A DNA stretch of 37,178 bases from Pachysolen tannophilus NRRL Y-2460 (GCA_001661245.1 KV454014.1:186001-223178); one strand, 5' to 3'; positions 337-30,700 are shown, numbered from the stretch's first letter. Numbers and translations: made by a program. Notes: a model not told the origin generated them from the letters alone.

Positions 337-1551
337 TTATAAACCTTCTTTTGCTAAATTATCTATAATATCTAAATATAATGCCACTGCGTTGAACTTT
401 GGTTTTTCTCCTAATATTGCTTCAGAATAATATTTCCTTATAGTGTTTGTCCAATTAATCAAATCCAAATGATCAACATTCTCCAATGTTCCTAAATATT
501 TCCCCCATTTAGAAGATTCTACACCAACCATCCCATCATTATCCCCCTGAGTCTCATAGATGATTTTCCATGAGAAATAAAACACATTATAAAAACTTGG
601 TACAAACCTTGAGCCATAACTAAAATATTTGACATTGGAATCATCAGGTACTTCTTTATTAAAATGATTATTGACATAATCTGTAGTCAATTCGAATATG
701 CTTCTTGGTATGATTTTTTGTAATGGGCCTTGTTTCACTTCCTTATCACTTAATTTAAAGTTGTTGATAATATAATCAGCCATTCCTGAACCATGATGAG
801 GAGATGAAATTGTAGTCAAACTCATAACTTTATAATTTTTTTGTTCTATTTTTGAAATCAAATATCTTGCATCTAATCCTCCCATTGAGTGAGCTATTAA
901 GTTAACCTTTATTGGTTCATCTTTAGGATTTTTATCTGTACCAGAATCTTTACCTTCCTCATGATAAATCAAATTTGCATCATCTTTTGTATCTTGTCTT
1001 AATTTAATAATCTTTGTCTCTATGAACTTGTTTAATGCATTTGCTCTTTCTTCTATACTACCAAAAGGAGGTACTCTTGCTACTAATACAGTACATCCTT
1101 TCAGATCTAAAGCTTCCTTAATACCATGCCAATAATTAAAATAAAACCCTCCATTTTCCTCCGCTAATTCTTTTCCAACAGATTCTGCTGTTTTACCAAA
1201 TGATTGATTTAAAGATATGTTGAAATTATGTAAAAATCTTCTTATAGGAGGAACAATGAAAAGTCTATCAAACCCTGAAAACCCATGGCATAGCACTATG
1301 GGATACTTTGGTGTTTGATAGTCATCTCTTAGACCTGAAAATTTATCAACAATAATTATGTCCTCTTCGTTACTGACATCTCTGGTACTATTGGCAAAAT
1401 TTCTGCATGATCCATCTCTACTATGCAACGACAACTCATAATGACGAGTAGTAACAACAGTTAAGGGCACCAAGCTCAAGAAATAATGATGGCGAAACTT
1501 GGGGATCATTCCTTTCATTTGTAGGGATATCAATGATATTCTAGGGATCAT
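337..1551 (-). CDS. TGL2: Triacylglycerol lipase Tgl2-like (alpha/beta hydrolase, probably mitochondrial)
   Basis: PIVLCHGFSG oxyanion motif, AHSMGG nucleophile elbow, TISSPHHGS, DNDGMV and VDHLDLINW. The first ATG in frame is at 1551; the track start at 1623 is a TTG in AT-rich UTR. Confidence 0.88.
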   Translation of the reverse strand: MIPRISLISLQMKGMIPKFRHHYFLSLVPLTVVTTRHYELSLHSRDGSCRNFANSTRDVSNEEDIIIVDKFSGLRDDYQTPKYPIVLCHGFSGFDRLFIVPPIRRFLHNFNISLNQSFGKTAESVGKELAEENGGFYFNYWHGIKEALDLKGCTVLVARVPPFGSIEERANALNKFIETKIIKLRQDTKDDANLIYHEEGKDSGTDKNPKDEPIKVNLIAHSMGGLDARYLISKIEQKNYKVMSLTTISSPHHGSGMADYIINNFKLSDKEVKQGPLQKIIPRSIFELTTDYVNNHFNKEVPDDSNVKYFSYGSRFVPSFYNVFYFSWKIIYETQGDNDGMVGVESSKWGKYLGTLENVDHLDLINWTNTIRKYYSEAILGEKPKFNAVALYLDIIDNLAKEGL

Positions 1552-1737
1552 TTTGAAAAAATTAAGAAATATCAAAAAAAAATATAAAAAAATAGAATAC
1601 AATTTAATATATTTGCAGTACAAATTATTTTATGAAGCAATTAACTTATATAAGATATAAACTTGACAATATAATTCTAAATGATTTTTAAAACTATACA
1701 AGAGGATCTAGTTTATTTTTTTTTTTTTTTGGTTCTT

Positions 1738-3174
1738 TTATTTCCCACTAATCTGTTTAATCATAAACTCTTTAACAAAATCTAAATTATTTAAAATATC
1801 AACACCAAGAGATCTTGCCTTTACTATAGGCATAAAATCAGTACTGTAAATCTTGTGTAATTTATCAACAACTCCAAGCAAGACGTGGTTTTCAGGCCAT
1901 CTTTCACTGAAATAAGGTTCCAAACTTAATGGGCTACCAATGTCCAAACCTCTTAAGCTAGCTTTTTCTAAAGCTTTAACTAAAGATTTAACATCACCTT
2001 GACCCATATTTAAACCTTGACCTGCTAATGGATGAGTAGTATGAGCTGCATCACCAACTAGTGCTACTCTTTCTGAGACATAAGTATCTGAATGAGATAA
2101 TTTCAATGGGAATTTACCTCTAGATTTTGAAATCATTGATGAAACCATAATTGGGTAATTTTCTTCCAAGAATTTTTCATCTTTATTTTTAGAAAATTGT
2201 TTTAATCTCCAAGATAATTCCAGTGGTAAAGAATCTTCATCATCTTGAGCAATCTTGAAAATATAATTCAATTCATCTTGATCTAATCTATAAGCAGCAT
2301 TTACTAATAAGACAAAATTCTCTTCTTTAACTTTCATCAGGATATTACTTAATTCTGGAGTAAGAGTCCATACCAAGCTAACATAATTATCTGGCATTGG
2401 TAATAGTGCAATAGGACCAGTTGGTAAAAACCTTTGCCATGCAACTGGCATTCTAAAACTTTCATGTTCATTTTGTAAAGTTGCTACAATTCCCCATCTA
2501 TTATATGACCAACCTCTATTTTCAATTTTAGCAAATTTTCTTGCAGGTGAATTAAAACCATCACAACCAATAAGAAGTCTTGTTTCAATTTTTGTCCCAT
2601 TACTCAATTCTAAAACGGGCCAATGATTCTTATCATTTTCCCCAATATTAACAACTTTTGTATTATCCAAAATTTCTAATTGATTATCTATAGAATCATT
2701 ATTATTTAATTCTTCAATTCTTTCAAGTAATGAAGATTGAATATTAATATTTTCACACATTGTGGCAATATCATCATGTGTAAATTCAATCTTAGCATTT
2801 GTAATACCATCATAAGCAATTATATCATCATATGATTGAATTCTATCTTCTTTAATAAATTTCCAAGAACCAATTTCTTTGAAAAAATCTACTGTTGTTG
2901 GAGTTAATGAAACAACTCTATTTGTGAAAAATTCAGGTGCATTTTTTTCAAAATCTTTCAATGGACCCAATAAATTCAAAGATTCAATAATCTTAATTTT
3001 CAAATTACTCGTCAGAGGAGAATTCTTTAAACCAGCACCTAAAGATAACCCAGCTGGTCCTCCTCCAATAATCACCACATCGGCAACCTCATTCTTTACA
3101 GCAGTACCAACAGTCGCTAAACCCCTAGCAAATAACCTGCAATTAATCATTCCTCTAAACTGATAAGAAAACAT
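1738..3174 (-). CDS. COQ6: Ubiquinone biosynthesis FAD-dependent monooxygenase
   Basis: DVVIIGGGPAGL FAD motif, NRVVSLTP, LLIGCDGFNS, WQRFLPTGPIALLP, VALVGDAAHTTHPLAGQGLNMG; mitochondrial presequence-like N-terminus. Confidence 0.96.
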   Translation of the reverse strand: MFSYQFRGMINCRLFARGLATVGTAVKNEVADVVIIGGGPAGLSLGAGLKNSPLTSNLKIKIIESLNLLGPLKDFEKNAPEFFTNRVVSLTPTTVDFFKEIGSWKFIKEDRIQSYDDIIAYDGITNAKIEFTHDDIATMCENINIQSSLLERIEELNNNDSIDNQLEILDNTKVVNIGENDKNHWPVLELSNGTKIETRLLIGCDGFNSPARKFAKIENRGWSYNRWGIVATLQNEHESFRMPVAWQRFLPTGPIALLPMPDNYVSLVWTLTPELSNILMKVKEENFVLLVNAAYRLDQDELNYIFKIAQDDEDSLPLELSWRLKQFSKNKDEKFLEENYPIMVSSMISKSRGKFPLKLSHSDTYVSERVALVGDAAHTTHPLAGQGLNMGQGDVKSLVKALEKASLRGLDIGSPLSLEPYFSERWPENHVLLGVVDKLHKIYSTDFMPIVKARSLGVDILNNLDFVKEFMIKQISGK

Positions 3175-3253
3175 CAGAAAAAAAAACCCAACGTTATTTT
3201 ATTCTCAATCGAATTCAACTGATCCCGTCAATTCTCTTATCGTCAATCAACTG

Positions 3254-3289
3254 GTGAACTTAGTCAACTTGGTCAACTTGGTCAACTCT
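3254..3289. repeat. Tandem 9-mer (GTCAACTTG)x4, degenerate, in the COQ6/FOL1 divergent promoter
   Basis: gtgaactta gtcaacttg gtcaacttg gtcaactct. Confidence 0.8.
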
Positions 3290-3338
3290 TTCCCACAAAA
3301 TAATATTTATGTCCGCTCCTTTCCCAAAGTGTCGTGCG

Positions 3339-3368
3339 TGAAAAATTAAAAATGTTCCTTGTGATGAG
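3339..3368 (+). promoter_or_regulatory. RRPE-like (TGAAAAATT) plus PAC-core (GATGAG) pair upstream of FOL1
   Basis: TGAAAAATT at 3339-3347 followed by GATGAG at 3363-3368, the usual order in yeast promoters. Motif match only. Confidence 0.35.
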
Positions 3369-3442
3369 GTAGTAATCTTTTGGGACATTAACAGAGGTTA
3401 ATCCGACAATACTATTGATAACAATAACAATAGAGGTTATCA

Positions 3443-3446
<4 letters not shown>

Positions 3447-3474
<28 letters not shown>
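3447..3474. repeat. (AT)n microsatellite
   Basis: Uninterrupted atatat... run. Confidence 0.9.
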
Positions 3475-3480
<6 letters not shown>

Positions 3481-3577
3481 TGGTATTAACTTATTTTGTT
3501 TAAAGTATTAGGGGAAAACTTGTTCAACTTGATAATATTTTTTTTCTTTTCTTTTCTTTTTCTTTTCAGGATTTTTT

Positions 3578-6163
3578 GTGAAGTTGTCGCAAATACTGAA
3601 AAATTTTGTCAAGTCCTGGCGAACCACTTCATCATCAGGACTGACTATAAACAATTGTGTTAAGAGAAGTTGCCTGAAAAGTATTCTGTCTTCTTTTCCA
3701 AGATATGGAATTGTGAATAGTTTAGAATTGGGATTGGAACAGAAACTGGAACTGGAACTGAAAAAGGTTTCTGGAGATAAAAATTGTATGAATATGGGTA
3801 CTGATTTAGTTTCTATTAAAAATTTGAAGATAAGTGCTATTACTGGGAAAGATTTTTGGTCAAGATCGGTTTTACAACCTTTAGAAGTTAGCGTTGATTT
3901 AAAGACTAGTTTTACAAAAGCAAGTTTGAATGATGATTTAAAATATTCTTTAAATTATGCTGTTATTTCAAATAATATTTTAAATTTTTTCGATAATTGT
4001 AAATCTACCAATTTTCAATCATTAGAAAAAATATCAAATTTTATATTTAAAATTATTTTACAAGATAAGAATGGATCTTTTGGTAGAATTGGTAAAGTTT
4101 GTATTAAAAGTACAAAATCTGAGATAAGATGTGATAATATTGAAATTGAAATGGAAAGAACAAGAGATGAAAATGATAAAATAATTATTTTACCTCAACG
4201 TAATTATTTGGATAAAATTAAAATTAATGGATTAAAATTATTTACAATTATTGGAGTTTTCAAATTTGAAAGATTACAAAAACAAATTGTTAATTTGGAT
4301 ATTGAAATTCAATATGATTTTTCTCAAAATTATGAACAAAAATTGGATTATTATTTAATAATTGATAAAATTGTTGAATATGTTGAACATTCAAAATTTA
4401 AAACTGTTGAAGCATTAGTATTGAATGTAGCAAACTTGATTTTCCAATCAAATCAAGATATTACAATTTGTAAAGTCGCAGTTATAAAACCAAATGCAAT
4501 TTTATTTTCAGATGGTGTTGGTGTTTCTATTGAAAAGACAAGAAAAGATTTAAAAGATTTTAAAATGATAGAATTTCAAGAAACTGATAAAATTGAAGAA
4601 TTAAATAAAATTTCTTTACCTAATTTTAATGATGAAAATTCTATTCAAAATGATTTTAAAGATCATATAGTTTATATTGCATTTGGATCTAATGAAGGTA
4701 ATCAATATGAAAATATTTTAAAATCTTTCCAAGAATTGATTAAAAATGATATTAAAATTATAAGTACTTCTACATTATATGAATCTAAACCAATGTATTA
4801 TTTAAAACAACCAAATTTTTATAATGGTGTTATTAAAACAAGTACAAGACATTCTCCTCATGAATTATTAAAAATTTTGAAAAAAATTGAATATGAAAAA
4901 TTAGATCGAATTAAAAAATTTAATAATGGACCAAGAACAATTGATTTGGATATTTTATTGTATGATAATTTAATTTTAAATGATACTGATTTAACTATTC
5001 CACACATTTCATTATGTGAAAGAAATTTTGTCTTAGCACCACTTTGTGAACTTTTATCACCCAATGCAATTCATCCAATTACTGCAGAACCATTTCATAA
5101 TCATTTAAAACAATTATTTGATAACACAATTAAGATAGATTCAAAATTACAAGAATCAAATGATTTAATTAATGTTATACCATTACCTACAAGAAAAAAA
5201 AATTTTCAAAAATTATCATTTGATTTAATTAAAAACACTAGTGAAACCATTATTATGGGAATATTAAATGTAACACCAGATTCATTTTCTGATGCAGGTT
5301 CAAATTATCATTTAGATCAAGCATTAAAGACTGTTGAATCCATGTGTTTGAATGGAGTTAAGATTATAGATATAGGAGGATGTTCTACTAGACCTGGATC
5401 TGAGCAACCAACAGAAGAAGAGGAATTATCTCGAGTTTTACCTATAGTGAAACTGATTAGATCTCATGAAAATCCACAAATCAATGAACTGCTATTAAGT
5501 ATTGATACATATAGATCTAAAGTTGCTGAAGAATCAATTAAACTTGGAGCTGATATTATCAATGATATAAGTGCAGGATTATTTGATAACAAGATGTTTG
5601 ATGTGGTTGCTAAATATGGCGTTCCATATATTGTAAATCATACAAGAGGGACTATACTGACAATGAATAAATTAACAAATTATAATCAAGAAATAGAATC
5701 TAATGATGAATTTTTAGAGTTTAATTTAAATTTTAAAGATAATAAAGAAAATCCACTTTTATCAATAATTAGTAAAGAGTTAACAAGACAATTATCTATT
5801 GCATATTCAAAAGGTGTTAAGAAATGGCAAATTATTTTAGATCCAGGAATTGGATTTGCAAAGACAACAGAACAAAATATAATTACAATTAAATCAACAA
5901 GAGATTTGAAAAAAAAATCATTACTTAATAAAGAAACTGGTGAATATATAAGTTTTAATAATTTACCTGTATTAATTGGACCTTCAAGGAAAAAATTTAT
6001 TGGTAATTTAACAAGAAATTCAAAAGTAGATGAAAGATTGATTGGTACATGTGCTGCCGTCATGTCATGCATTGGTTTTGGAGCAGATATTGTAAGAGTA
6101 CACGATTATAAAGAAGTTAGAGATGTATGTTTGATTGGTGATGCTATCTATAAGAATAGGTGA
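3578..6163 (+). CDS. FOL1: Trifunctional dihydroneopterin aldolase (x2)/HPPK/dihydropteroate synthase; true start uncertain (first in-frame ATG 3788, near-cognate start ~3578, or spliced exon 3309-3333)
   Basis: DHNA motifs (DDLKYSLNYAVIS; IIGVFKFERLQKQ), HPPK motifs (YIAFGSNEG; GPRTIDLDILLY), DHPS motifs (IMGILNVTPDSFSD; DIGGCSTRPG; ILDPGIGFAKT; GPSRKKFIG; IVRVHD). Confidence 0.96.
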   Translation: MKLSQILKNFVKSWRTTSSSGLTINNCVKRSCLKSILSSFPRYGIVNSLELGLEQKLELELKKVSGDKNCMNMGTDLVSIKNLKISAITGKDFWSRSVLQPLEVSVDLKTSFTKASLNDDLKYSLNYAVISNNILNFFDNCKSTNFQSLEKISNFIFKIILQDKNGSFGRIGKVCIKSTKSEIRCDNIEIEMERTRDENDKIIILPQRNYLDKIKINGLKLFTIIGVFKFERLQKQIVNLDIEIQYDFSQNYEQKLDYYLIIDKIVEYVEHSKFKTVEALVLNVANLIFQSNQDITICKVAVIKPNAILFSDGVGVSIEKTRKDLKDFKMIEFQETDKIEELNKISLPNFNDENSIQNDFKDHIVYIAFGSNEGNQYENILKSFQELIKNDIKIISTSTLYESKPMYYLKQPNFYNGVIKTSTRHSPHELLKILKKIEYEKLDRIKKFNNGPRTIDLDILLYDNLILNDTDLTIPHISLCERNFVLAPLCELLSPNAIHPITAEPFHNHLKQLFDNTIKIDSKLQESNDLINVIPLPTRKKNFQKLSFDLIKNTSETIIMGILNVTPDSFSDAGSNYHLDQALKTVESMCLNGVKIIDIGGCSTRPGSEQPTEEEELSRVLPIVKLIRSHENPQINELLLSIDTYRSKVAEESIKLGADIINDISAGLFDNKMFDVVAKYGVPYIVNHTRGTILTMNKLTNYNQEIESNDEFLEFNLNFKDNKENPLLSIISKELTRQLSIAYSKGVKKWQIILDPGIGFAKTTEQNIITIKSTRDLKKKSLLNKETGEYISFNNLPVLIGPSRKKFIGNLTRNSKVDERLIGTCAAVMSCIGFGADIVRVHDYKEVRDVCLIGDAIYKNR

Positions 6164-6191
6164 AGAAGAAGAAGAAGAAGAAGAAGAAGAA
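6162..6191. repeat. (GAA)n microsatellite beginning inside the FOL1 stop codon
   Basis: tgaagaagaagaagaagaagaagaagaagaa. Confidence 0.9.
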
Positions 6192-6619
6192 ACACAAACC
6201 GGAGGCTTACCGAGGTGTATACCGAGGCTCTGAATCTCTGATTTTTTGAACATCCCTCGAAATTAAAAAAAAAAAAAAAGTTTTTCGAGGACCAAAGACC
6301 AAGGACCGAGGAAAACGATGCCCACCGATATTCCACACACACATGTATATATATATATATTTATAATATTTATTTTATTTTATTTCTGCCCCGGGGCAGA
6401 TCACAATTTTTTCCTCGGTCGGTTTAAAGTTTCGGTACTATTTCCTTTCCTCGGACTTTTCTTTTCCCGGACTTTCCTTTTTCCGAAACTTTCTTTTTCT
6501 TTTACTTTTTCTTTTTTTTTTTTATTTCTTTTTTGCTATTGTTCCGCACGACTATTTTCCGTGTTAATTTTTCCCCTTTTCAGTTTTTCCGTGATTTTTT
6601 TCACAACCTTTCCTCGAAG

Positions 6620-6630
6620 TGAAAAATTTT
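6620..6630 (+). promoter_or_regulatory. RRPE element upstream of GIS2
   Basis: Exact TGAAAAATTTT. Confidence 0.5.
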
Positions 6631-10822: not shown

Positions 10823-10934
10823 ATTTTTAACAAAAAAAAAAATAAAAAATAATTTATTCATTTTGATTTATTTATATATATATATATATATGAGTGTGTG
10901 TGTGTAATAAATAATGATGTACTATATACTAGAT

Positions 10935-16890: not shown

Positions 16891-17042
16891 TAGATTGTCG
16901 AAGAATGAAAACAAAAAAAAAATAAAAATCAACGAGAAATAATAAATAATTACTGGATTAAAGAGTATATATATTTCATCAACTTTTTCGTTTTAGTTTT
17001 TTTTTTTCGCTTTTGTAACATTGTAGTGCGCCTGTAAGTAAA

Positions 17043-18677
17043 ATGGATTCGCAGTATAGTAGAGATTCGCTAGATAAGACTCAACAAGTTGATGATGGTT
17101 ATGAAAATAATCATAATGGTGGTCTAAGTCCACCAGATTTTTCCAGTGTAACGATTAAACATTATCTCAAGACAAGATTTACTGAATTAATTCCAACAGT
17201 GGAAGAAATTAAATCTAAGAGACATCTTGTTAATCCGTTTCCTCCTTTGAAAAATATGACATGGAAACAATGGAGTTTTTTCGGAGTTTCATTTTGGAGT
17301 TGGACCCTTGATTCTTTTGATTATTTTGCAGTTAGTTTAAATGTTTCAAATTTGAGTAAAACATTTGATGTATCAACTGCTGATATAACATGGGGTATTA
17401 CGTTGGTATTAATGTTAAGATCAGTTGGTGCTATAATTTTTGGTGTATTAAGTGATAGATATGGTAGAAAATGGCCTTTAATAAGTAATTTGATTTTACT
17501 TTCAATTTTACAAATTGCTACAGGTTTTGTTAATACTTATAAACAATTTTTAGGTGTTCGATCACTTTTTGGTATAGCAATGGGTGGATTATATGGTAAT
17601 GTTGCTGCAACTGCATTAGAAGATGCTCCTTCAGATGCTAGAGGTATTTTATCTGGTTTACTACAAGAAGGTTATGCTTTTGGTTATTTATTAGCAGTAG
17701 TTTTCCAAAGAGCTTTAGCTGATACAACTTCAAAAGGATGGAGATCAATGTTTTGGTTTAGTGCAGGTGTGACTTTAATTTTTATTGTTTGGAGAATGCT
17801 ATTACCAGAAACTAATACTTATAAAAGACAAAAAGCTCTTTCTGAAAAATCTGGTTCTGCTTCAAAAATATTTATTCAACAAGCAAAATCATCTATAAAA
17901 ATTTATTGGCTTATTTGTATTTACCTTGTTATACTAATGGCAGGTTTTAATTTCATGAGTCATGGTTCACAAGATTTATATCCAACTTTACTAGATGTTC
18001 AATTAGGTTTTAGTACAGATGCTTCAACAGTGACAAATTCTGTAGCAAATTTAGGTGCTTTTACAGGTGGTATCTTTATTGGTTATATTAGTGAATTCAT
18101 TGGTAGAAGATTATCTATAATCATATGTTGTATTCTTGGAGGTGCAATGATTTATCCATGGCTGTTTTTAACAGGTTCAGGCATTAATGCAGGATGTTTT
18201 TTCTTACAATTTATGGTTCAAGGAGCATGGGGTGTTATTCCAATTCATTTAAGTGAATTGGCACCTCTGCATTTTAGATCATTTATAGTAGGTACTAGTT
18301 ACCAATTAGGTAACCTATGTAGTTCAGCAAGTTCTACCATAGAAGCAACAATTGGTGAAAGATTTCCATTATATGATTCAAATGGTAACAAAGAAAATGG
18401 TGTTTATAACTATGCAAAAGTAATGTCTATATTTATGGGATGTGTTTTCGCATTTGTATTATTAGTTGCTTTATTTGGACCTGAAAATAAAGGTGCAAAT
18501 ATTGCTATGGATACTATAATTGATAAAGATTTTAAAAATGATGAAGAAGCACAATTAGATGAAGAAAAAGAACAAACCGAATATGAAGAATTGGTTTATA
18601 ATAATGAAGAAGGTGATGAAGTTGATGAATGTGAATCTAATGAATCTCAAGTCGGAAAAGCGGTTCAATTGAATTAA
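17043..18677 (+). CDS. JEN1: JEN-family MFS carboxylate:H+ symporter (more Jen2/dicarboxylate-like)
   Basis: DITWGITLVLMLRSVGA, DRYGRKWP, NFMSHGSQDLYPT signature, QGAWGVIPIHLSEL, YQLGNL; ~12 hydrophobic segments. JEN1 vs JEN2 subfamily is not resolved. Confidence 0.85.
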   Translation: MDSQYSRDSLDKTQQVDDGYENNHNGGLSPPDFSSVTIKHYLKTRFTELIPTVEEIKSKRHLVNPFPPLKNMTWKQWSFFGVSFWSWTLDSFDYFAVSLNVSNLSKTFDVSTADITWGITLVLMLRSVGAIIFGVLSDRYGRKWPLISNLILLSILQIATGFVNTYKQFLGVRSLFGIAMGGLYGNVAATALEDAPSDARGILSGLLQEGYAFGYLLAVVFQRALADTTSKGWRSMFWFSAGVTLIFIVWRMLLPETNTYKRQKALSEKSGSASKIFIQQAKSSIKIYWLICIYLVILMAGFNFMSHGSQDLYPTLLDVQLGFSTDASTVTNSVANLGAFTGGIFIGYISEFIGRRLSIIICCILGGAMIYPWLFLTGSGINAGCFFLQFMVQGAWGVIPIHLSELAPLHFRSFIVGTSYQLGNLCSSASSTIEATIGERFPLYDSNGNKENGVYNYAKVMSIFMGCVFAFVLLVALFGPENKGANIAMDTIIDKDFKNDEEAQLDEEKEQTEYEELVYNNEEGDEVDECESNESQVGKAVQLN

Positions 18678-18727
18678 GAGCTATTTTTTACAACAAGGTT
18701 TATCCATATCATATATATATATATATA

Positions 18728-19551
18728 TCATGGAGCTGGAGATGATTTTTCCGAAACTTCAGATTCTGAATCATCATCTGTAAGTGAACTCATTGAATCA
18801 TAATTAAGATATTCTTCCAAGGAAAGATGTTGTATCCGATCATCCAGTGGCTGTGAAGTTGTAGTTGAAGAAAATTTTTTTCTTGTGGTGTTGTCTTAAT
18901 TTGTTCTTTTTGTTGATATATTGGTTTTTTACAAATTGGCCATCTTTCTAATCCATCATTATTACGGATCCAACTGAAATTTTCAAATTTTTCAGTACTA
19001 TCAGAAGTTATCAGAAGCAATTTTTCAAATTTACGTTCTGATTCCTTTATTAAAGAATCTGAATCTATCTCATCATTATTATTGTCGTTACTTTCATTGT
19101 CATCCCTCATAATAGGTGACTGATGTTCTATCTTCAAGATATCATCATCATTATCATCTGTAGATTTGATATTTATGAAATTCAAGATATTATTTACTGG
19201 CATTAAAAAATTGGAAATATCTTCATGGTATAATTGATCCTTTTCACAAGGTTCATTTTTAACCAATTCTTGTTCCGATTCCGATAATTCTGAATCCAAT
19301 TTTCTTCTTTTAAAGTTAATTTGTGAGTTAACATTATCTTCATTATCTTGTTGAAATTTTCTTGATAATCCATGCATCGATTGCAATTTATCCTCTTCGA
19401 CTATTACATTATTAATATTATTAATACTTTTTAAATCTTTCAAAACAGAGCGATGAGGAACAACAACAACTCTTTCATTGGCTGTTGTACTTGACATCTC
19501 TTTTGCTCTTTCTGATAAACGGCGAATACGACTAGACTTACGAGTTGACAT
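18728..19551 (-). CDS. Orphan hydrophilic protein (~274 aa if one A is restored at the 18875-18881 run; 253 aa as assembled)
   Basis: Long ATG-initiated ORF with yeast-like composition, a KRRK basic motif and an RSVLKDL D-box-like motif. The -1 frame continues SSTTTSQP..EEYLNYDSMSSLTDDDSESEVSEKSSPAP to TGA at 18730-18728. Confidence 0.6.
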
Positions 19552-19837
19552 CGCTCAAAAATTTCACGGTCACTAAATAAATTTATACGCCCACAAGTGA
19601 AGAAAAAAAAAACTTTCAAGGCCCTTCTTTTTATTGGTAAACAATAAAATAAGAAAATAACCAAAATAAACTTCCTATAATATATATAGTTGTTATATAA
19701 ATATTTTTAAAAACAAAAAAGTTGAACTGTTCATTCTAGTTTTCAATAGCTTTTTATTGAAAAATTTCTTTTTGAAATCGTGCGGCTTCCAGTTTAAAAA
19801 ATTTTTTTTTTTTTTTTTTTTAAACTTTTAATTTTAA

Positions 19838-20185
19838 ATGTGCATGAGATGCCCGTTACCCTACCCAGGTACTAAACAAAACAATAGAAATAAATAATAC
19901 CGAGAAGATATTTCTACATTACCATCATCAATTTTCACTAAAAAGTTCTATCCTAGTCAATTGGAGTATAGATATCATGAACATTTAAATTTAGCATTAA
20001 CAGATATTGCAATCAAGAATATTGATTATTCTATAGGTGGCAATAATAATATTGATTTATTGGATAAAAATACTACGATTGGCAGAGGTAAAACTACAAA
20101 CTATACTAATGCTATTAAGAAAAGAGCAACTAATAACGATGTTTATCTCACTGATGTTGCAGATTATAATGAATTTTTAATTTAG
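19838..20185 (+). pseudogene. Possible degenerate gene fragment (ATG 19838/19844, in-frame TAA at 19895, open to TAG 20183-20185)
   Basis: About 115 codons in one frame with a single stop, in a stretch lacking the homopolymers typical of local intergenic DNA. Confidence 0.25.
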
Positions 20186-20699
20186 AAAACTATGGAGTAT
20201 GAAGGATAACCTTTTTTTTTTTAATTTTTTAATTTTTTTCTTTGACATTTTCTTTTTTCATTTCTTGCATTTTCTATTTAACTATAGTTCATTATTTTGT
20301 TTCTATAGAGTTTAAATCGTGGTTATTCCTTGCTTTCTTTTCTTCTTATCGGAATTGTTTGTGTGATTGTTTGTGTGTGAATTATGTTTTTTTTTTTTTT
20401 TGAACTTGATATATATTATTTTAATTTGAGTATAGGTTAGTTAGGTTTTTATCATATATTCTTATTTATTCCAATTAAGAGTACGTTACTTTTATGAATT
20501 TATTGTAAGCTATTTAACTATTATTGAAAATTAATCAAAAATGTAAAAATGAATATGACCTTATATACTTTTTTTTTTTTTTTAATTTTATCTTTAAATT
20601 TAAACTAAAGTAAACTAGAAAGCGAAAGCGAATGACCTAAAACACAACAAAAAAAAACATTAAAAAAAAACCAATAAATAAAAAACCCAATTTTTGGTC

Positions 20700-23087
20700 T
20701 CAAAGCCTTAATGAATGATAAATTCCATTTGGATTATGAATTCTACTGACACCTGTTCTTACTCTAACTTGGCACTCTTCTTCTTCTTCATCATCTTCTT
20801 CTCCTCTTACATCATCTACTCCACCAGCTTGTTGCGGTCTATCAATCGTGCTATCACGATTTCCAAACACACTATTAGTATTCTTTCTATTGTTCATGCC
20901 TTCTTCAATCTTCATATTTTTTTGTAAATTTTTCAAAAATTTACGATTATTTTTCAGATCCACTGGCAAAATTAAATATATGAAACTTTCAACTGTCCAT
21001 TCGTACCATATTTTTCTATCTTCGTTATCAAAATCTCTTTTAAGTAAAATTTCTACTTCTTGATCATCAGAAAGATATATTGGATTTTCTAAAGGGAAAA
21101 AAGTAGGTAACCAAGAAATTAAATCTTGCGGGAGCAAATAATTTGGGTTATTTGATATAGAGATTCCAGGATATAATTCCAGTTCAAAACAACCCACAAG
21201 ACCATGAATCATACCTTTATGTCGACATTTGAAAGATAATTTTTTAATACGCTTGTTGTGATGGTTATTATTCAATGATTTATGCATATGAGATATATTA
21301 TTTGGATGTTCAAAAGTCCAGGATTCATGAAATTTGGATGATAATAGATCGAACTGATTGTTCAACACAATATACGGTCTATGGAATGCTCTCATATCAC
21401 CTAATTTGCACAAATTCTTGTATACTGTTGGTGCAATGGCAGGAGCAATGTAACTGGTATATGATCTTGGAATGAATATGCAACTGTTTGTCTCTGAATA
21501 ATCGCACCATTTTTCGACTGAATCAAAACATTCTGGTGAGAGTTCATTACAACCAAAGCTTCCTAATAATTCTCCAATGACAAGATTGAACTTTAAAGAA
21601 ATATCATCGTTTTGCCAAAATCTTACATCTTCATTAATAATATTTACTTTATTATCCCATTTCTGTTGATTTTTTTGTGTTAAATAAATTGTTGCATTTG
21701 GATTTTTTTCAACCAGATAAATTTTTATTTTTGATAAATCTAATTTTAAAAAATTTAAAGATGAAAATAATTTTTCTATTAAAGGACCTCTACCTGGACC
21801 TATAATTAATATATTTAAATTTTTAATTTGAATAATATTTTGTGATGATTGAAATGATAATACAGTTTTTTTAATATTTTGAAATTTTTCTAATTTTAAT
21901 AAATCAATTAATGATGCAATCATTGCACGTTCATAATAATCATATTTAATTGAATCTTTTTCAAAAATTTTATAAGTAATATTATCTAAATTATGTTGTA
22001 ATGGTTGTAAAGGAACTTGTAAAGAATCTTGACCAAAAATTTTAGAATATCTATCATTTGTAAATAATTCAATTGGAGAAAGTTGTAAATTTTTATCATT
22101 TGTCTTTGAAATAAATTTTAAATAATTTAAATATGCTAAATCACCAAGATAAATTTCTTCACCATTTTCTAATTTTATAATTGGATGATCATTTTCAATA
22201 GTATTATTAATTGAATTTTTTTTAAAATCTTTATCAACACCATGTAATAATAAAATAGGAGGATTAAACCATTTTTTTTGTATAAATTTCCATAATATGA
22301 TTTGATTAAATTTATTTAAAACTGGATAATTTTTATGATTTAAAATAAAAGAAGAAGTTGAAATAAGAAAAATTTTAACAGGTTCTAATAACCAACGATT
22401 TATAATATATTGTGGTATATTTTTTTTAGGTAATGCTAATGAAACTGATAAATTTTCATTATAATTACATTGTAATCTAATTGAATTCCACATATCCCAA
22501 GTTGATAATGAATCTATAACTGGTACAATTTCTCCAGTTATTGGATTTTCTAAAATTTCTTCACAAATTGGTAATGATATTGAAATATTTAAATTTTTAA
22601 ATTTGTTTAATGCAGTATTTAAATTATTTGTAAAAATTGATAAAGTATTTAAATTTTTAGGAGGTGCAATTAATACCATTGATAATCCAATATGATTTGC
22701 ATATGATAATTCATTCAGTAAAACTTGAAGAGAAAATTCATTAATAATTTGATTTTTACTATCTAATTCAACCCATGAAGAAATTAATCCAACAATTTTT
22801 TTGGTATGATCACCAGTAAATATACCAACTTCTGAAGAATTAGGAAACGGCACTTTTAAAAAATTTAAATCAATTATTTTTTCATCATTATGCTTATTAT
22901 ATAAATCTTTAAAATCTCTAAATGCTTCTTTACAACTTTCTCTATATTTTGCATTTGTAATTGGTGACAAGACATAATCATAACCTAAATTTGTATAATT
23001 TTCACATAACAGCTTATCTGAATTTAAAAGTATCAAACTTGATGGTGAAGGTTTAATACCAATCGACACATAAGGTATATCCGGCAT
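20700..23087 (-). CDS. HSL7: Type II protein arginine methyltransferase (PRMT5/Skb1/Hsl7)
   Basis: PLQPLQHNLDNITYKIFEKDSIKY, IIGPGRGPL, VEKNPNA, GELLGSFGCNELSPEC, SWLPTFFPL, WYEW; ATG at 23087; divergent from CKS1 as in S. cerevisiae. Confidence 0.95.
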   Translation of the reverse strand: MPDIPYVSIGIKPSPSSLILLNSDKLLCENYTNLGYDYVLSPITNAKYRESCKEAFRDFKDLYNKHNDEKIIDLNFLKVPFPNSSEVGIFTGDHTKKIVGLISSWVELDSKNQIINEFSLQVLLNELSYANHIGLSMVLIAPPKNLNTLSIFTNNLNTALNKFKNLNISISLPICEEILENPITGEIVPVIDSLSTWDMWNSIRLQCNYNENLSVSLALPKKNIPQYIINRWLLEPVKIFLISTSSFILNHKNYPVLNKFNQIILWKFIQKKWFNPPILLLHGVDKDFKKNSINNTIENDHPIIKLENGEEIYLGDLAYLNYLKFISKTNDKNLQLSPIELFTNDRYSKIFGQDSLQVPLQPLQHNLDNITYKIFEKDSIKYDYYERAMIASLIDLLKLEKFQNIKKTVLSFQSSQNIIQIKNLNILIIGPGRGPLIEKLFSSLNFLKLDLSKIKIYLVEKNPNATIYLTQKNQQKWDNKVNIINEDVRFWQNDDISLKFNLVIGELLGSFGCNELSPECFDSVEKWCDYSETNSCIFIPRSYTSYIAPAIAPTVYKNLCKLGDMRAFHRPYIVLNNQFDLLSSKFHESWTFEHPNNISHMHKSLNNNHHNKRIKKLSFKCRHKGMIHGLVGCFELELYPGISISNNPNYLLPQDLISWLPTFFPLENPIYLSDDQEVEILLKRDFDNEDRKIWYEWTVESFIYLILPVDLKNNRKFLKNLQKNMKIEEGMNNRKNTNSVFGNRDSTIDRPQQAGGVDDVRGEEDDEEEEECQVRVRTGVSRIHNPNGIYHSLRL

Positions 23088-23147
23088 CCTATCATTAACT
23101 ATCAATATTCCAATACACAAATCAGAAAAAAATCATAAATTAATGAC

Positions 23148-23174
23148 ATATATATATATATATATATATATATA
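23148..23174. repeat. (AT)n microsatellite
   Basis: Uninterrupted atatat... run. Confidence 0.9.
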
Positions 23175-23291
23175 AAGATCATCCTCATCAGCCATCACCA
23201 TCTCAAACCTTCATACAAAAAAATAAATCTTGGGTCGTGTTTTAGCCGCTCAAAATAAAAGGAAAAAAAAAAAGTATGTGAAAATCCGCTG

Positions 23292-23297
23292 ACGCGT
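23292..23297. promoter_or_regulatory. MCB (MluI cell-cycle box) in the HSL7/CKS1 divergent promoter
   Basis: ACGCGT, rare in this AT-rich DNA, between two cell-cycle genes; a PAC core (CTCATC) is at 23184-23189. Confidence 0.55.
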
Positions 23298-23437
23298 TTC
23301 AAAACCTCCTTTTTAAACAAGAATTTATTAATATATTTATATATATAAATATAAATATATATATAAAAATTGTTATTTATAGGTTTAGGATTAGGATTGA
23401 TATCTATTGTTACGGAAGAGATAGGAGATAGGTTGCA

Positions 23438-23844
23438 ATGTCGAATAAACCGAGATATCTTGCAGATAGTGAGCGGGCCAGGGTATTGGAGTTCCAAGAG
23501 ATGATTCATTACTCTCCTCGTTATTCCGATGATGAATATGAATATAGACATGTTATGCTTCCAAAGCCAATGCTAAAAGTTATTCCTCAAGATTATTTCA
23601 ATCAAGAAACTGGAACGCTCAGGATATTATCTGAAGAAGAATGGAGAGGTTTGGGGATCACGCAGTCTTTGGGTTGGGTACATTATGAAACACACGGTAA
23701 GTAAATATTAAAAAAAAAATTAATAGAAGAGAGTTTTTTTTTTTAGATTTTATTAATATGGAACAAACTAACCATCTATTAATTTTATTAGCTCCTGAAC
23801 CACATATTTTATTATTCAAACGTCCAATCAATTTCGGACAGTAA
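23438..23844 (+). CDS. CKS1: Cyclin-dependent kinase regulatory subunit, 2 exons (23438-23696, 23792-23844), 103 aa
   Basis: [21 protein letters not shown]...[21 protein letters not shown] joins to [17 protein letters not shown] after splicing. Confidence 0.97.
23697..23791 (+). other. Spliceosomal intron in CKS1 (95 nt, phase 1)
   Basis: GTAAGT donor, AACTAAC branch at 23766-23772, TAG acceptor; restores the conserved HAPEPH. Confidence 0.95.
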
Positions 23845-24711
23845 GATTTTAAGTGTGAAATTTGTGGACTTTTTTTAAAAAAAAAAATAGTCCAGGTTTT
23901 CCAGACTTTTAAAAATTGTTTTTTTTTTTTTTGTTTTGTTTTGTTTTCATAATTTTTCATGATTTTGGCCTTCATTTTATATTGGAAGGATTGGAGTACT
24001 TCCCTTTTTCTTTTTTTTTTCTTTTTTTTCTTTTTTGATACCCAAAAATTTTGCATTCTCACAACACATATATATATATGTATACTTTTAAATCTAGAGA
24101 AATAACTGACTAGGCTAGGTTTGGTTTTTTAAAAAAAAAAAAAATATATATGTATGTATGTATAGTAAGTAGTTTTTATATATATAGTTTTTATCTGTTT
24201 ATGGTTTTTCAAAGAAAATAAATTAAAAATTACAAAAATAAGAAAAATTATTAACTATATTATTTCGTTCTTGATTTGGGAATTACCAATAATTTATTAT
24301 ATCATCACCACTAACAAAAAGAACAAATTGATATATATATATATAAATCAATAATAATATATGGTATTTATTGTATAGATATATAATACGAGATGTGCGT
24401 ACCGCAGTTTTTTTTAACAATCAAGCACTAGTGTTAGTACTAATTGTGTGCTGCTAAGTGCGCTTATACGTATACGCTCTTTTGTGTGTTTTCGCGTATG
24501 CTTATGTGTACGCTTAATTACGCGGCCACTGCGTATCACATTGAAAAAGTTGTAATTCCTAAAATCGATAAAACAAATTGCAAAACCCTTTTTTCGCTTT
24601 TTCTTTTGAAAACAAAAACAAAAACAAAAAAACAGTTTTCAAATTTTATATATCTCTTTTTCTTTTCTTTTCTTTTCTTCTATAAATGACGGTGGCGGTT
24701 ATTTAATAAAG

Positions 24712-27700
24712 ATGGAATCCGATCAGAATCTATTACTGCTATTGGATTCAATAATTCAACAAATACCTCTGAGTTCTTTTAAAGGCTCAGTGAATCTTGA
24801 AAATGATGGCGGTAATCATGATATTGAACAATTGGATAAAATTAAAACAATGAGAATATTGGTCAATGACGTTTTAACTAGTTATATTGATTGTAAATTA
24901 GGTGCGTATGGATATTTTATGGAGTAATGGTTTTGATTACATTTTCAACTAACATGTTTTTCTTTTTTTTTATTTTAGACGATGGACAAGTAATTATTAT
25001 TATGAAAATTTTAAAAGTTATTCAATATTTGATTTCAAAATCTTATAATGTAATGATAGAATCTAAAGATTTAAGTTATGAAATTTTTTTACAAAAATTG
25101 ATTCCCTTTTTGAATTGCCGTTTATGTGAAGATAAATTAATAAATGAGATCAAATTTACAATATTAAATATGATAAGTATACTACATGAAAAATTACATA
25201 ATTTTAAAATTCAACAAAAAATTGCAAATTTTTTAATAAATAACTTGGAATTAAATTTGAATGCAATTTTTGAACTTAATAAAATAATGAATAATTCCTC
25301 AATATCAATTTCTAATGATTTTTTTGATAATAACAATGAAAAATTAAACAAGTTAAGCATATCGATCCATATATTACAAATTTTAATGAATTATAAATCA
25401 AATAGACTATTATTCTTGGATATTCAACATGATTTTCAATTTGAAAGTTACTCACGCAAACTTTGGTTTTTGTTACAAAGTCATAGTTTAAACATAATAA
25501 ATATCAAAGATAATTTGAAAAATTCATATCAATTATTAAATAAAATTGATGATCTTTCAGTAATATTATTAAACAGTATGAGTTCATCTTTTTTAAATGA
25601 TCATACACCAAAATCTTCTAAAATAACTTTTTTGTTATTAAAATTTAAAGAATTATTAAATTGGGATTATTTACCTTATTTCATAAAATTACAACATGAA
25701 CTTTCAAAAGAATTATTAAAAGTTTTCATCAAGACTATCGAACTTAATTTTGTTAAAAATTTTGAATTAAACTTAAGAATTGCAAATTGTATGGTAATGC
25801 AATCGATCAAAAATGGCAATACAATTAATGTGAATCCAGATCTTATAAAGACTTTATATATTATCACATATTCATTACACAAGTTAAATGCTAAAGAATT
25901 AATTCCTTTAATAGATGCCGATACTACATTAGAAAATATACATATGAATTTTATTGAAACAATTATAAATAATTCAATAACAGCATTTGATGATTTAACT
26001 TTGGAAAATTTAAGGTTATCAATTTTTAAATTAATATTTAAAGAAAATCAATCAATGCAAGAAATTTTACCTTTAATTAATGGTAATGAGTTTATTAACA
26101 TTATTAATGAAAAAGAATATAAAGAAGATCATTCCTTATTTTTGAAAAATTGGTTAAACACTTTAAATTTAAAAATTAAGAAAGAAGAAATCAAATTTGA
26201 ATCAACAATTCAGAAAATATATATTATAAACTCGTTGGGTAATTTTGCTTGCCTATATTCACAAGATTACGATTATGATTCCAAGATCTGTTCTAAGTGT
26301 GATATGCAAATTAATGACACATCTTATGGCTTAAATATTATTGATAAGAATAGAAAATCTTCAAAATATGAACCAGAAATTGTACTAGCATTGCAAATTT
26401 TATTCAAATTTGCCGGAGATGATGAAAATGAAATAGTAAAAGTTCATGTACTATTATCCTTACGCAAATTTTTTGCTTCTTTTAGACCCCCAACAATCAA
26501 TAATAAATGCAAAGTTTGGAAGTTTATACTAACTTGTCTCAGAAGTACTACCCGAGAAATAAGATTACTTTCCAGCAAGTTAATCCCTTATTATTTGATT
26601 ATTCCAGAAGGTAAGGATTATGAAGAAAATTTTCAAATTATTGTTAGCGACTTGCAAATGATTAAGTTTAACGATGCTAAGTTGACTCATCTTGCTGAAT
26701 CGACTGTTATGGCATGGGGTGAATTAGCCATTGTTTCTGGAATAGACGAGAAGCTAGTGTTGATTTTGATGAAATTAATAGATTTTCTTGGATCTGAAAA
26801 TCAATTTCATTCAATGATTGCTTTCCATGAGTTTTTAATAATCTCCAAATCAAAGAAAAAAACTCCTTGGCAACTATTGGCACCTTTTTTACCGAATTTG
26901 AGTGTCATAATCGTTAAGCAAATGAAAAGTAAACCAATTATCTTGGCAAAAATTTGTGAATTAGTTGCAGTTACAGTGGATAGTTTTTTAGCGAGAACAC
27001 AGGCTTATACAGTTCCACATTTATTAACTTATTACAAGCATGATTTGATTGGTGACGTAAGCCAAAAGATTAAAATCTCAAGATTTGAATTAATCCATAA
27101 AAATTTTTCTAGGATTATTGCTTATTTGTTAACTTTTGAAGATAAAATCAGTCAGAAAAAAATCATGCAGATTTTAGGTAATGCGGCTTCTGAATTCAAA
27201 GGAAGACAGTTGACTGAGTTGGTTGATAACAACAGTATTGCAATAAGTTGGGAAGTTTTGAAGATTTATTCCCCTGAATCGAACAATCATCTGAAAATCA
27301 AAAATGCTTTATTGTATATCGCTTCAACATTGCTTCCAAATGAAACTAATCCTTTGGAAGTTTATCTTGAACGAACTATATTAGGTATTGTTCAAAATTT
27401 TTCTGAATCCACATACGATGTGAAAGGCTTACAACCATTCATTGAAAAACTAAGAGCTATTTGGGCCATTGATTGTCTCATAGCAATTAGTGGGAAATCC
27501 ATAGTATCTGCGTTACCTCAGATTATGGCCTGTATACAAACCAATCTTGAACTTTCTCATTTACATTACGAATCTTTAAGGTGTTTGAAAATTTTAATTA
27601 AAAATTTATCTCAGTCGAATTTGTCAATTATATTAGATTTGATCTTATCCTTGATTTTGCAGAAATGGAGTCAATTTAGTGAAAAGACAAAACTAGAATC

Positions 27701-30700
27701 TAAGGAAATCTTGAATATTTTGTTTAAAGAACATGAAGCTTTGATTAAAAAAAAATATTTTAATTATATATTTTCACTTTCCTTCAATCCAGAATTATTA
27801 GGCATTTATAATAATGCAAGAGTTACTTTTCCAAACAGCATCAAAGGTACTTCTTTTAGCTTATTACATGACCTAACTCTCAGGTCCAAGAATGAAAATA
27901 AATTTGTTGTTCTGCAGGCATTATCAGATTTGGAATATTATTTCAAAAAATATCAAAACGAATTTCATTCGTCATACGTGAATAATCCTTCTTTTATAAA
28001 CTACATACCGGTTTTGAGGAGCACTTTGTTAGAAGTATCACACAAATTTAGATCATCTGACGTTGAAATTCCGACAAAATGTGCTATTGTTTTTGGTTTA
28101 ATGGGTTCGCTAGACTTTAATAAATTTAACAATTTTTCTGTAATATCCAGTGATGAGAAAGATCAATTGATAATTTTGAAACAGTTTACAGATAGGAACG
28201 AAGTATATCGATTCCTTATTATATTTGTTAAAAGTGTTTTGGTGAAAGCATTTTGGGCTTCTACAGATCCAGTCAAGCAATTGTTTTTAGCATATGCCAT
28301 GCAGGAATACATGAAACTACTAGAATTAAATGGGATCGATGTGGAATCTTTTTCTAAGGATGAAATCAACAAGACTTCGACGCCCCTGATCATCTGGTCC
28401 AAATTTGACGATATTTCAAAGTCTACTTTGTTGCCATTGTTGAGCTCGAAGTATATCGTCAACGGAAGTAAGAATGAAAACTTAACATATCCAATTTATA
28501 AGACATGGATGAAGCACTCAAAATGGCTTAGAGACTTTACTTTAGATCTATTGAGAAAATCCAAACATGAAGGTATCAATCCTGCTGCTCAAAAAATATT
28601 CCTTATATGTACATCTATCATCAAAGATCAGGATCTATCAATATGCAACTTCATTTTACCGTATGCTACTTTAAATCTTATTTTATGCAAAGATGAAAAA
28701 ATAGAAAAAGAGATTGAAACTGAAATGTTACTGATATTAGGCAGTAATGTTAGCGGTGTAAATGACAACTCCACTGCGGAGCATTTGAAATCTTGCTATC
28801 AGTCAGTTTTTGGTATTCTAGATTACTTCAAAAAATGGTGCTCTGCAAGGAAACAAAAAAAGAAAAGAGCAGACCTTTCATCTATTTCTACTAAAACTTT
28901 TAATGAAGAAACTTCACTAGTTGAAAACTTTTTAAATCGGATGCCCCAGGAGCTCATAGCAAAAAGATCAGCAGAATGTAATTCCTATGAAAGGGCCATT
29001 TTAAACTTAGAAGAAAGTTACAGATCGTCAAAAATTGAAAGGAATGAATTTTTTTCTACCATTCAATCAATGTACGTTGAAATTGATGACTTAGATGCAT
29101 TAGACGGTGTATTGAAAAAATTCTCCACGCAGAGTTTAACAGATAAGCTATTGCAATTTCAATACAGTGACAATTGGAAAATTGCCCAAGACTGCTTTGA
29201 AGCCTTAAGTGAATCTGATTTAAACAGAGAAAAAGTAAAGGATACAACTGATTTGTTGAAATCATTGAATGATTACAGTTTATATGACAGTTCTTTAGAA
29301 AAATTAGATGCTCAGTTATCTTTGTTGAATGGTAATTTGAATATGCTAGCAAGCGAGTGGGTTCGTATCGGATTGAATTCATCAGTTTATGCTGGAAATT
29401 TACATGCTTTAAAAAAATGGATTTATGTCACAGAGTCCAATATCAAACCTTCGTCTTTGACCGACTCTGCTTTATTTATAGATTATGAATTTGCGAAGGC
29501 ATTGGTATTTTTAGCAGAAGATAAAATTGAAGACACTGTAAGCCATATTAATAAGGCATTCCAGTTGTTAGGCTATTCACTTGCAATGTCTAAAGAGACT
29601 TCGTTGTCGAGGACTAGGAGTATAATAAATCAATTACATTGTTTAACAGATTTGAAAGAGATCCTGTTATCTACGTCTAAATCCAAGTCGGAATCTAACA
29701 TAAAAACATTGGACTTAAGATATTCTAATGTTTCCAACGATTTTCAATCTTGCTGGCGTATTCTTTCAACGAGAAGGGCTGCAGACAATTTACATCCCAA
29801 TGATTTTACTAAAAATGATATAAGTAATATTTGGATTGAAAGTGCTAAGATAGCAAGAAAATCTGAGAGATTGGATTTGGCTACTAAATCTATCATGAAT
29901 GCTATGCTTTTGGAAAATCAAAAAGTTGATTTAGAGTATGCTAAGTTGTTATGGGCCCAAGGAGATCATAGTAGAGCATTGAAAGCTATTGATGAATTGA
30001 GATCCAGTGATAACGAAAGAAGCATTAGGGAAAATGCTCTAATTCAATTAAAGTATACTAAATGGTTGGATTCATCAGATAGTGGTAATTCATCAACTAT
30101 TATAGATGAATACAACAAAGCCGCTAAGATGGATGTTAAATGGGAAAAACCATATTACCTTTTAGGTAAATATTTCAATAAAATTTTGGAAAATCAATCT
30201 ATAGTTTCGGAAGATATCAAATCCTCTAAGGATTTTTATGGAGATTACGAAAGAAGATTAGTTTTCAACTATCTTCGTGCTCTTCAATGTGGATCTAAAT
30301 ACTTATTTGAAGCTTTACCAAAAGTTATCACTGTTTGGCTAGATTTTGCTTCCAAATATAAGGACAAAGTTCCAAGGTTTAAGAACGAAGAAATGGCGAT
30401 AGAAAGAAAAAAAATTACGATTTAATAAAGGAGAGTATAAAACAGTCGATAAATCTTATTCCTGCAATATGCTGGTATACAGTTCTTTCACAGTTGATTT
30501 CAAGACTGCTTCATCCAAATCCAGAGGCTCTGGAACAAGTCATGGATTTGGTTTCAAAGATAACAGAGGCATATCCAGAGCAGGCTTTATGGTCTGTCTT
30601 TGCTCAATCTAAATCAACCATTACAGAAAGGTCAAAAATGGGTAATAATATTCTTTCAAACATTATTCAACGGCCAAGTAATCCGGAAGAATCAGTAAAG

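What the first reader, a model, noticed from the sequence alone, without database searches (positions are those of the whole stretch)
1102..30532. Genome appears to read CUG as alanine (Pachysolen-type code, NCBI table 26)
Seen: in-frame CTG codons at Hsl7 IY[CTG]VEKNPNA (21716-21714), Fol1 VK[CTG]IR (5453), Jen YPW[CTG]F (18162) and AP[CTG]HFR (18267), Tgl2 ALD[CTG]KGC (1104-1102) and Mec1 PEA[CTG]EQVM (30530). Recalled family knowledge: PRMT5 has YAVEKNPNA, S. cerevisiae Fol1 has IKAIR, Jen2-type proteins have YPWAF and S. cerevisiae Jen1 has ELAPA, so Ala (not Leu or Ser) fits. CUG-Ala decoding is established for Pachysolen tannophilus and relatives. Inference: this genome belongs to that clade and every CTG in the ORF track is mistranslated. 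Two sites (Coq6 NI[CTG]MK ~2338-2340; Mec1 ISR[CTG]LH 30506) align better with Leu, so the signal is not perfectly clean.
Basis: partly seen in the sequence, partly recalled or inferred. Interest (0 to 1): 0.75.

Follow-up and report, generated by a model that had tools for sequence, protein, structure and literature searches.

The report
Known CUG-to-alanine yeast genetic code
This DNA comes from a budding yeast already known to read the codon CTG as alanine instead of leucine, using an alanine transfer RNA with a changed anticodon, so the finding is right and matters for translating the genes but is not new.

Summary
Real, already known. All eight quoted CTG codons are in frame. In four alignments, conserved columns under CTG were Ala 3 of 6 (Leu, Ile, Pro once each), against Ala 0 of 110 under the other Leu codons (p=8e-5) and Ser 42 of 56 under Ser codons. 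The genome holds a tRNA with anticodon CAG on an alanine body (G3:U70, A73, short variable loop; G000:C6); none of 17 Leu/Ser tRNA genes found has CAG. Public records of window proteins already carry Ala at CTG, and one is labelled Pachysolen tannophilus, the species where CUG=Ala was shown by mass spectrometry (PMC4937558; PMC5951914: 243 Ala, 3 Leu of 256 sites). The Leu/Ile/Pro columns are most likely single-base mutations into CTG, tolerated as Ala. This scan noted the same code before on other pieces of this genome.

The parts
21714..21716 (-). CTG in Hsl7/PRMT5 (residue 458), the best Ala column
   Evidence: Ala in 113 of 119 homologues; stretch 20620-23134 covered without substitutions by contigs of 4 of 4 runs
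21180..21182 (-).
   Evidence: Ala 75, Ser 20, Thr 15, Cys 7, Leu 1, Val 1 of 119
18162..18164 (+). CTG in Jen-type carboxylate transporter (residue 374), Ala column
   Evidence: Ala 109, Gly 7, Val 3 of 119
18267..18269 (+). CTG in Jen (residue 409), Pro column with rare Ala
   Evidence: Pro 111, Ala 5, His 2, Gln 1, Leu 0 of 119
5453..5455 (+). CTG in the DHPS domain of Fol1
   Evidence: Ala in 2bmb_A (Fol1) and 1tws_A (DHPS), Val in 7mpy_A; only 3 of 39 matches were shown aligned
1102..1104 (-). CTG in the Tgl2-like lipase, variable polar column: against Leu, not specific for Ala
   Evidence: K in 4, Q in 1, A in 1 of 6 fungal-type loci; H, N, R, R in 4 lipase structures shown
2338..2340 (-). 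CTG in Coq6 (residue 279 of the ORF), a true Leu column: exception
   Evidence: Leu 106, Phe 7, Val 3, Ile 3 of 119; not covered by the read check
30506..30508 (+). CTG in Mec1, aliphatic column (mostly Ile): exception
   Evidence: Ile 112, Val 17, Leu 13, Met 3, gap 4 of 149; no cover
30530..30532 (+). CTG in Mec1, variable column: no support for Ala
   Evidence: Phe 29, Tyr 28, Val 16, Trp 12, Gln 11, Ala 6 of 149
20700..23087 (-). Hsl7/PRMT5 gene, 795 aa, 5 CTG
   Evidence: table-26 translation is an exact public record, table-1 translation is not; Pfam PRMT5 domains
17043..18677 (+). Jen-type MFS transporter gene, 544 aa, 2 CTG
   Evidence: table-26 translation is an exact public record, table-1 translation is not
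24712..31957 (+). Mec1/ATR gene: probable short first exon, long frame 24927-30425 (5 CTG), frameshift at the A8 run 30407-30414, last frame to 31957 (2 CTG)
   Evidence: public model P0242 has Ala at all 7 CTG
1738..3174 (-). Coq6 gene, 3 CTG
   Evidence: public record P0122 has Ala at all 3 CTG

Best explanation
The window is nuclear DNA of Pachysolen tannophilus (order Alaninales), which translates CUG as alanine. Mechanism: a copy of an alanine tRNA gene gained the anticodon CAG (G000:C6:217831-217902, minus strand). Alanyl-tRNA synthetase recognises the G3:U70 pair and A73 of the acceptor stem, not the anticodon (established knowledge; PMC4937558), so this tRNA is charged with Ala and delivers it at CUG; no leucine or serine tRNA with CAG competes. 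Shown here: the codons, the columns, the tRNA gene and its identity elements, the lack of CAG among the Leu/Ser tRNAs found, the table-26 public records. Shown in papers, not here: Ala in peptides. Inferred: charging by AlaRS; and that the 'unclean' sites arise because CTG is one base away from Leu (TTG, CTA, CTT, CTC), Pro (CCG), Gln (CAG), Met and Val codons but two or more from GCN, so new CTG codons appear at such sites and stay where Ala is tolerated.
For: tRNA: RF00005 57.6 bits, E 4e-11; anticodon CAG; 5' GGGC, G3, U70, A73, G37, no long variable arm; 51 and 49 of 72 bases identical to this genome's Ala(AGC) and Ala(TGC), 35-45 to four Leu/Ser tRNAs, 48 to Val; it is 1 of 7 genes caught by an Ala-body pattern. 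17 Leu/Ser genes: Leu TAA 4, CAA 1, AAG 1, TAG 1; Ser AGA 3, TGA 3, GCT 3, CGA-type 1; none CAG; a pattern for a Leu/Ser body with CAG found 0. Columns. Public records; P0242 labelled Pachysolen tannophilus by its source. Nearest named Hsl7 relatives are Pichiales at 46-48%, the sister group. MS: 97.2% Ala of 907 supported CUG positions (PMC4937558); 243 Ala, 3 Leu of 256 (PMC5951914 Suppl. Table 1). Neighbour effect: in the paper's BLAST table for the species, non-Ala residues under CTG are enriched over GCN for Leu 5.3x, Gln 4.7x, Met 3.5x, Pro 1.6x.
Against: Only 6 conserved CTG columns in the window, and 3 are not Ala. Pfam scores under tables 1/12/26 separate Leu from the others but not Ala from Ser: of 13 domains whose score changed and that pass or near their cut-off, Ala was best in 5, Ser in 6, Leu in 2, all within 3 bits. 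Public Ala records only show the annotator's code. tRNA searches were by pattern and are not exhaustive (the Rfam scan, scored 63 of 1003 candidates and missed the CAG gene; my first Leu/Ser pattern missed Leu-CAA). For the neighbour idea: Lys is enriched 3x though not a neighbour, Arg (1.0x) and Val (0.6x) are not enriched.
Confidence: 0.98

Rival explanations
1. Standard code: CUG=Leu, and the Ala columns are chance Ala-to-Leu changes.
For: Coq6 2340 is a Leu column (106 of 119); Mec1 30506 is aliphatic; ARAGORN labels the CAG gene 'Leu' from its anticodon alone.
Against: Leu under 1 of 6 conserved CTG columns against 99 of 110 for other Leu codons, p=1.5e-4; the CAG tRNA lacks the long variable arm and has an Ala acceptor stem; MS 3 Leu of 256.
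Confidence: 0.003
2. CUG=Ser (table 12, Candida type).
For: Ser scores as well as Ala in Pfam; Ser is second at Hsl7 21182 (20 of 119) and aligned at Fol1 5657 in 2bmb_A.
Against: Ser under 0 of 6 conserved CTG columns (p=6e-4); no Ser-body tRNA-CAG; the CAG tRNA shares only 35-41 of 72 bases with Ser tRNAs; MS 0 Ser of 256.
Confidence: 0.003
3. Mainly Ala but with meaningful Leu at some CUG sites (wobble by the intron-containing tRNA-Leu(UAG), or mischarging of the G37-bearing CAG tRNA), which lets sites such as Coq6 279 and Mec1 30506 keep a hydrophobic residue.
For: Two of 6 conserved CTG columns are aliphatic; Leu is second in the published genome-wide CTG row, 15.8%; the genome has one Leu(TAG) gene and the CAG tRNA has G37, the base tied to Leu mischarging in Candida (PMC5951914).
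Against: MS finds CUG as unambiguous as AUG (PMC4937558) and Leu at 3 of 256 sites; no long variable arm for LeuRS; single-base mutation into CTG explains Leu, Gln, Met and Pro together, whereas Leu decoding explains only Leu.
Confidence: 0.03
4. For the exceptions only: the CTG at Coq6 2340 or Mec1 30506 is a base error of the assembly.
For: The assembly has homopolymer errors: 7 insertions in 16900-23900 seen in 4 of 4 runs.
Against: No substitution was listed in the covered parts; such sites are common genome-wide. Neither site was covered, so this is untested.
Confidence: 0.07

Closest known systems
Pachysolen tannophilus nuclear code, NCBI translation table 26 (Muhlhausen et al. 2016, PMC4937558; Riley et al. 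2016, cited in PMC11182611, not read)
   Same: Same species by the label of P0242; CUG at Ala columns; tRNA-CAG with GGGC start, G3:U70, A73, G37 and no extended variable loop, as the paper describes.
   Different: Nothing found. The paper's tRNA figure could not be compared letter by letter.
CUG-Ala clade = order Alaninales / Pachysolenaceae (Pachysolen, Nakazawaea, Peterozyma; PMC5951914, PMC11182611)
   Same: Code is the diagnostic character of the order; MS 95-98% Ala in all three genera.
   Different: None; this is the type species.
CUG-Ser1 (Serinales, table 12) and CUG-Ser2 (Ascoideales) yeast codes
   Same: Same codon reassigned through an anticodon-shifted tRNA whose synthetase ignores the anticodon.
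   Different: Donor is tRNA-Ser with a long variable arm; Ser1 has about 3% Leu mischarging and most Ser2 species keep a tRNA-Leu(CAG); neither a Ser-body nor a Leu-body CAG gene was found here.

Membership tests
CUG-Ala code (table 26, Alaninales) | CUG codons lie at conserved Ala columns rather than Leu or Ser | tested here: met
   Ala 3 of 6, Leu 1, Ser 0; other Leu codons Ala 0 of 110; small sample
CUG-Ala code (table 26, Alaninales) | tRNA with CAG anticodon on an alanine body (G3:U70, A73, short variable loop) | tested here: met
   L039:1486-1557 minus
CUG-Ala code (table 26, Alaninales) | No Leu- or Ser-type tRNA-CAG | tested here: met
   0 of 17 Leu/Ser genes found, 0 matches; pattern searches in a 197-contig assembly, so not proof of absence
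CUG-Ala code (table 26, Alaninales) | Peptides carry Ala at CUG | not testable with these tools
   Published for the species; peptide lists for these genes not seen
CUG-Ala code (table 26, Alaninales) | Belongs to Pachysolen, Nakazawaea or Peterozyma | tested here: met
   P0242, identical to window frames apart from the skipped break, is labelled Pachysolen tannophilus by its source; no tree or rDNA comparison was made
CUG-Ser code (table 12) | Ser-body tRNA-CAG and CUG at Ser columns | tested here: not met
Standard code | CUG at Leu columns as often as other Leu codons | tested here: not met
   1 of 6 against 99 of 110

The most novel reading that the evidence does not exclude
Some CUG codons in this yeast still give leucine often enough to matter, so that conserved hydrophobic sites such as Coq6 279 and the Mec1 site at 30506 are kept working by residual Leu decoding (tRNA-Leu(UAG) wobble or mischarging) under conditions or in low-abundance proteins that bulk proteomics did not cover: a second natural case of dual CUG decoding.
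Probability: 0.03. Interest if true: 0.65.

Novelty: already known. Interest (0 to 1): 0.08.

Why it matters
Practical only: every CTG here must be translated as Ala (table 26), and automatic tRNA callers mislabel the responsible tRNA as Leu. The biology (third meaning of CUG in yeasts, codon capture by an anticodon-shifted tRNA-Ala) has been in print since 2016. A small side point may be useful to people who infer codes from alignments: in this code Leu, Pro, Gln and Met sites are one mutation from an Ala codon, so a minority of CTG in Leu columns is expected and is no sign of ambiguity. One search (terms CUG-Ala, leucine, mistranslation, Pachysolen, residual; 4 listings, none opened for this point except PMC5951914) did not show that point, which is too little to call it unpublished.

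Tried and rejected
ARAGORN on the window: 0 tRNA genes. Rfam tRNA scan of the genome gave 63 genes and missed the CAG gene; 20 of the 63 were typed by anticodon. A first CAG pattern gave 2 matches, neither a tRNA. The second gave 22 matches (control 5); 4 of its 20 loci were run through ARAGORN, chosen by eye, 1 was a tRNA. Folding the tRNA alone: z-score -0.59, uninformative. Pfam scoring under three codes did not tell Ala from Ser. Exact look-up: 2 of 10 translations found; Tgl2, Fol1, Hsp70 and two CTG-free ORFs were absent under the starts I chose, so absence there says nothing. Other CTG columns were variable: Hsl7 23012, 22718, 20957; Coq6 3015 (V38, I36, K27) and 2223 (D56, E33); Mec1 27291, 27912, 28386, 29664 scattered, 28731 Ala 46 of 127; Fol1 5489 V/K/L and 5657 S/C/N in 3 alignments. 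Sequencing runs: no RNA holder listed. Contigs laid on 16900-31990 gave no cover at Mec1 30004-31990 and none listed over Jen 17968-18736, so the Mec1 frameshift and the CTG at 30506, 30530, 18162, 18267 were not checked; Coq6 lay outside the stretch; three of the four runs are one sample and the fourth may be the source. Supplements of PMC4937558 could not be read; they may hold the tRNA alignment and peptide lists that bear on the exceptions. Notes near this finding: none.

Full report
Observation. All eight quoted codons are CTG in frame. The 15 frames examined hold 34 CTG among 8,922 codons, against 899 other Leu codons and 383 GCN.

Columns. Homologues were gathered with CTG read as X, except the Mec1 query (table 1) and the Tgl2 locus search (table 26): 119 each for Hsl7, Coq6 and Jen (the listed best 120 less the window's own record), 149 for Mec1, 6 loci for Tgl2 and 3 shown alignments for Fol1. 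21 of 34 CTG were thus compared. Clear Ala: Hsl7 21716 (113 of 119), Hsl7 21182 (75 of 119, rest mostly Ser/Thr), Jen 18162 (109 of 119), Fol1 5453 (2 of 3). Not Ala: Coq6 2340 (Leu 106 of 119), Mec1 30506 (Ile 112 of 149), Jen 18267 (Pro 111, Ala 5, Leu 0). With a 60% conservation cut over four alignments, CTG columns are A3, L1, P1, I1; other Leu codons L 99 and A 0 of 110; GCN A 38 of 49; Ser codons S 42 of 56. CTG differs from Leu codons (p=8e-5 for Ala, 1.5e-4 for Leu) and from Ser codons (p=6e-4), not from GCN (p=0.17). Pfam scores under tables 1, 12 and 26 disfavour Leu slightly and leave Ala and Ser level.

The tRNA. A pattern search found a tRNA at G000:C6:217831-217902, minus strand (L039). 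It scores 57.6 bits as RF00005 and has anticodon CAG (ARAGORN names it Leu from the anticodon). Its acceptor stem GGGCGTG/CACGTCC with discriminator A, G3:U70, G37 and short variable loop is that of the genome's own alanine tRNAs: 51 and 49 of 72 bases match Ala(AGC) and Ala(TGC), 35-45 match four Leu/Ser tRNAs, 48 match Val. The Ala-body pattern gave 7 genes: AGC 3, TGC 3, CAG 1. Leu/Ser patterns gave 17 genes, none with CAG, and a direct pattern for a Leu/Ser body with CAG gave 0. These searches are not exhaustive.

Identity and annotation. The table-26 translations of Jen and Hsl7 are exact records in NCBI/UniRef; the table-1 versions are not. Records P0122 (Coq6) and P0242 (Mec1) have Ala at 3 of 3 and 7 of 7 CTG. 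P0242 is labelled Pachysolen tannophilus by its source. This shows which code annotators used, not what the cell does. Contigs of 4 runs (two samples; one may be the source) cover Hsl7 without substitutions, so its CTG codons are not base errors.

Literature. PMC4937558 (parts 1-3 of 6 read; supplements not available): CUG=Ala in P. tannophilus, 97.2% of 907 fully supported positions, tRNA-CAG with G3:U70, A73, G37 and no extended variable loop, tRNA-loss-driven capture. PMC5951914 (parts 1-2 of 5, passages, and parts of supplements 1, 4, 6 with search passages of 3 and 5): Ala clade = Pachysolen, Nakazawaea, Peterozyma; 243 Ala, 3 Leu, 0 Ser of 256 sites. PMC11182611 (passages): CUG-Ala is the diagnosis of the order Alaninales (also in NCBI taxonomy). 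PMC5499181 (passages) restates it. Riley et al. 2016 was seen only as a citation. Eight earlier notes of this scan, of 105 that fit the look-up, say the same for other pieces of this genome; they were seen after my reading was fixed and are not independent support.

Mechanism. Shown here: codons, columns, tRNA gene and identity elements. From papers: Ala in peptides. Inferred: AlaRS charges the CAG tRNA because it reads G3:U70, not the anticodon. For the exceptions, the paper's genome-wide BLAST row for CTG in this species is Ala 30%, Leu 16%, Pro 10%, Gln 7% of 554 scored sites, against Ala 82% for GCN, so Leu columns under CTG are usual here. Relative to GCN, the non-Ala share under CTG is enriched for Leu 5.3x, Gln 4.7x, Met 3.5x and Pro 1.6x, all one base from CTG; Lys (3.0x) does not fit, Arg (1.0x) and Val (0.6x) are not enriched. 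I take single-base gain of CTG at sites tolerant of Ala as the likeliest cause (about 65%), then relics of the old Leu code read as Ala (about 25%), base errors (about 7%) and real Leu decoding (about 3%); these shares are my judgement.

Verdict. Correct, and already known: the type species of the CUG-Ala code. Interest 0.08. The only opening for novelty, residual Leu decoding, is disfavoured by two published proteomes.

Noticed in passing
window 30407-30414: Mec1 is split by a frameshift at a run of 8 A; the public model P0242 jumps the break, dropping about 13 residues, and starts at an internal Met. Most likely a homopolymer error of the assembly (Mec1 is essential in budding yeast, recalled); no contig covered it.
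   Followed up: partly
window 18790-19551 (-), run of 7 T at 18875-18881: An ORF without Pfam match changes frame near its end; contigs of 4 of 4 runs have one more T behind 18874, so the break is an assembly error. Six further one- or two-base insertions lie between genes.
   Followed up: yes
window 24712-24978: Probable first exon of Mec1 (2 more CTG) followed by an intron with a GT start at 24902, a branch-point-like ACTAAC at 24948 and TAG at 24978; the 5' site is GTGCGT, not the usual GTATGT (recalled).
   Followed up: partly
proteins P0013 (Hsl7), P0396 and P0397 (Jen): Unnamed database proteins with Leu in Ala columns: P0013 at both window CTG/Ala sites of Hsl7 (and 2 of 7 strong Ala columns), P0396 and P0397 at 2 and 3 of 20. 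Probably other CUG-Ala yeasts translated with the standard code; their DNA was not seen.
   Followed up: partly
L057 = G000:C8:422113-422249 (-): Single tRNA-Leu(TAG) gene with a 52-base intron; single Leu(AAG) and Leu(CAA) genes against four Leu(TAA).
   Followed up: partly
window 17043-18677 and protein P0409: A second Jen-type transporter of the same species, 59% identical, is on record; it has Ala and Pro at the two CTG columns.
   Followed up: no
window 1738-3174, 17043-18677, 20700-31957: Brettanomyces locus tags for Hsl7 and Mec1 are consecutive (FOA43_000290, _000291), so the Hsl7-Mec1 neighbourhood seems conserved in Pichiomycetes.
   Followed up: no
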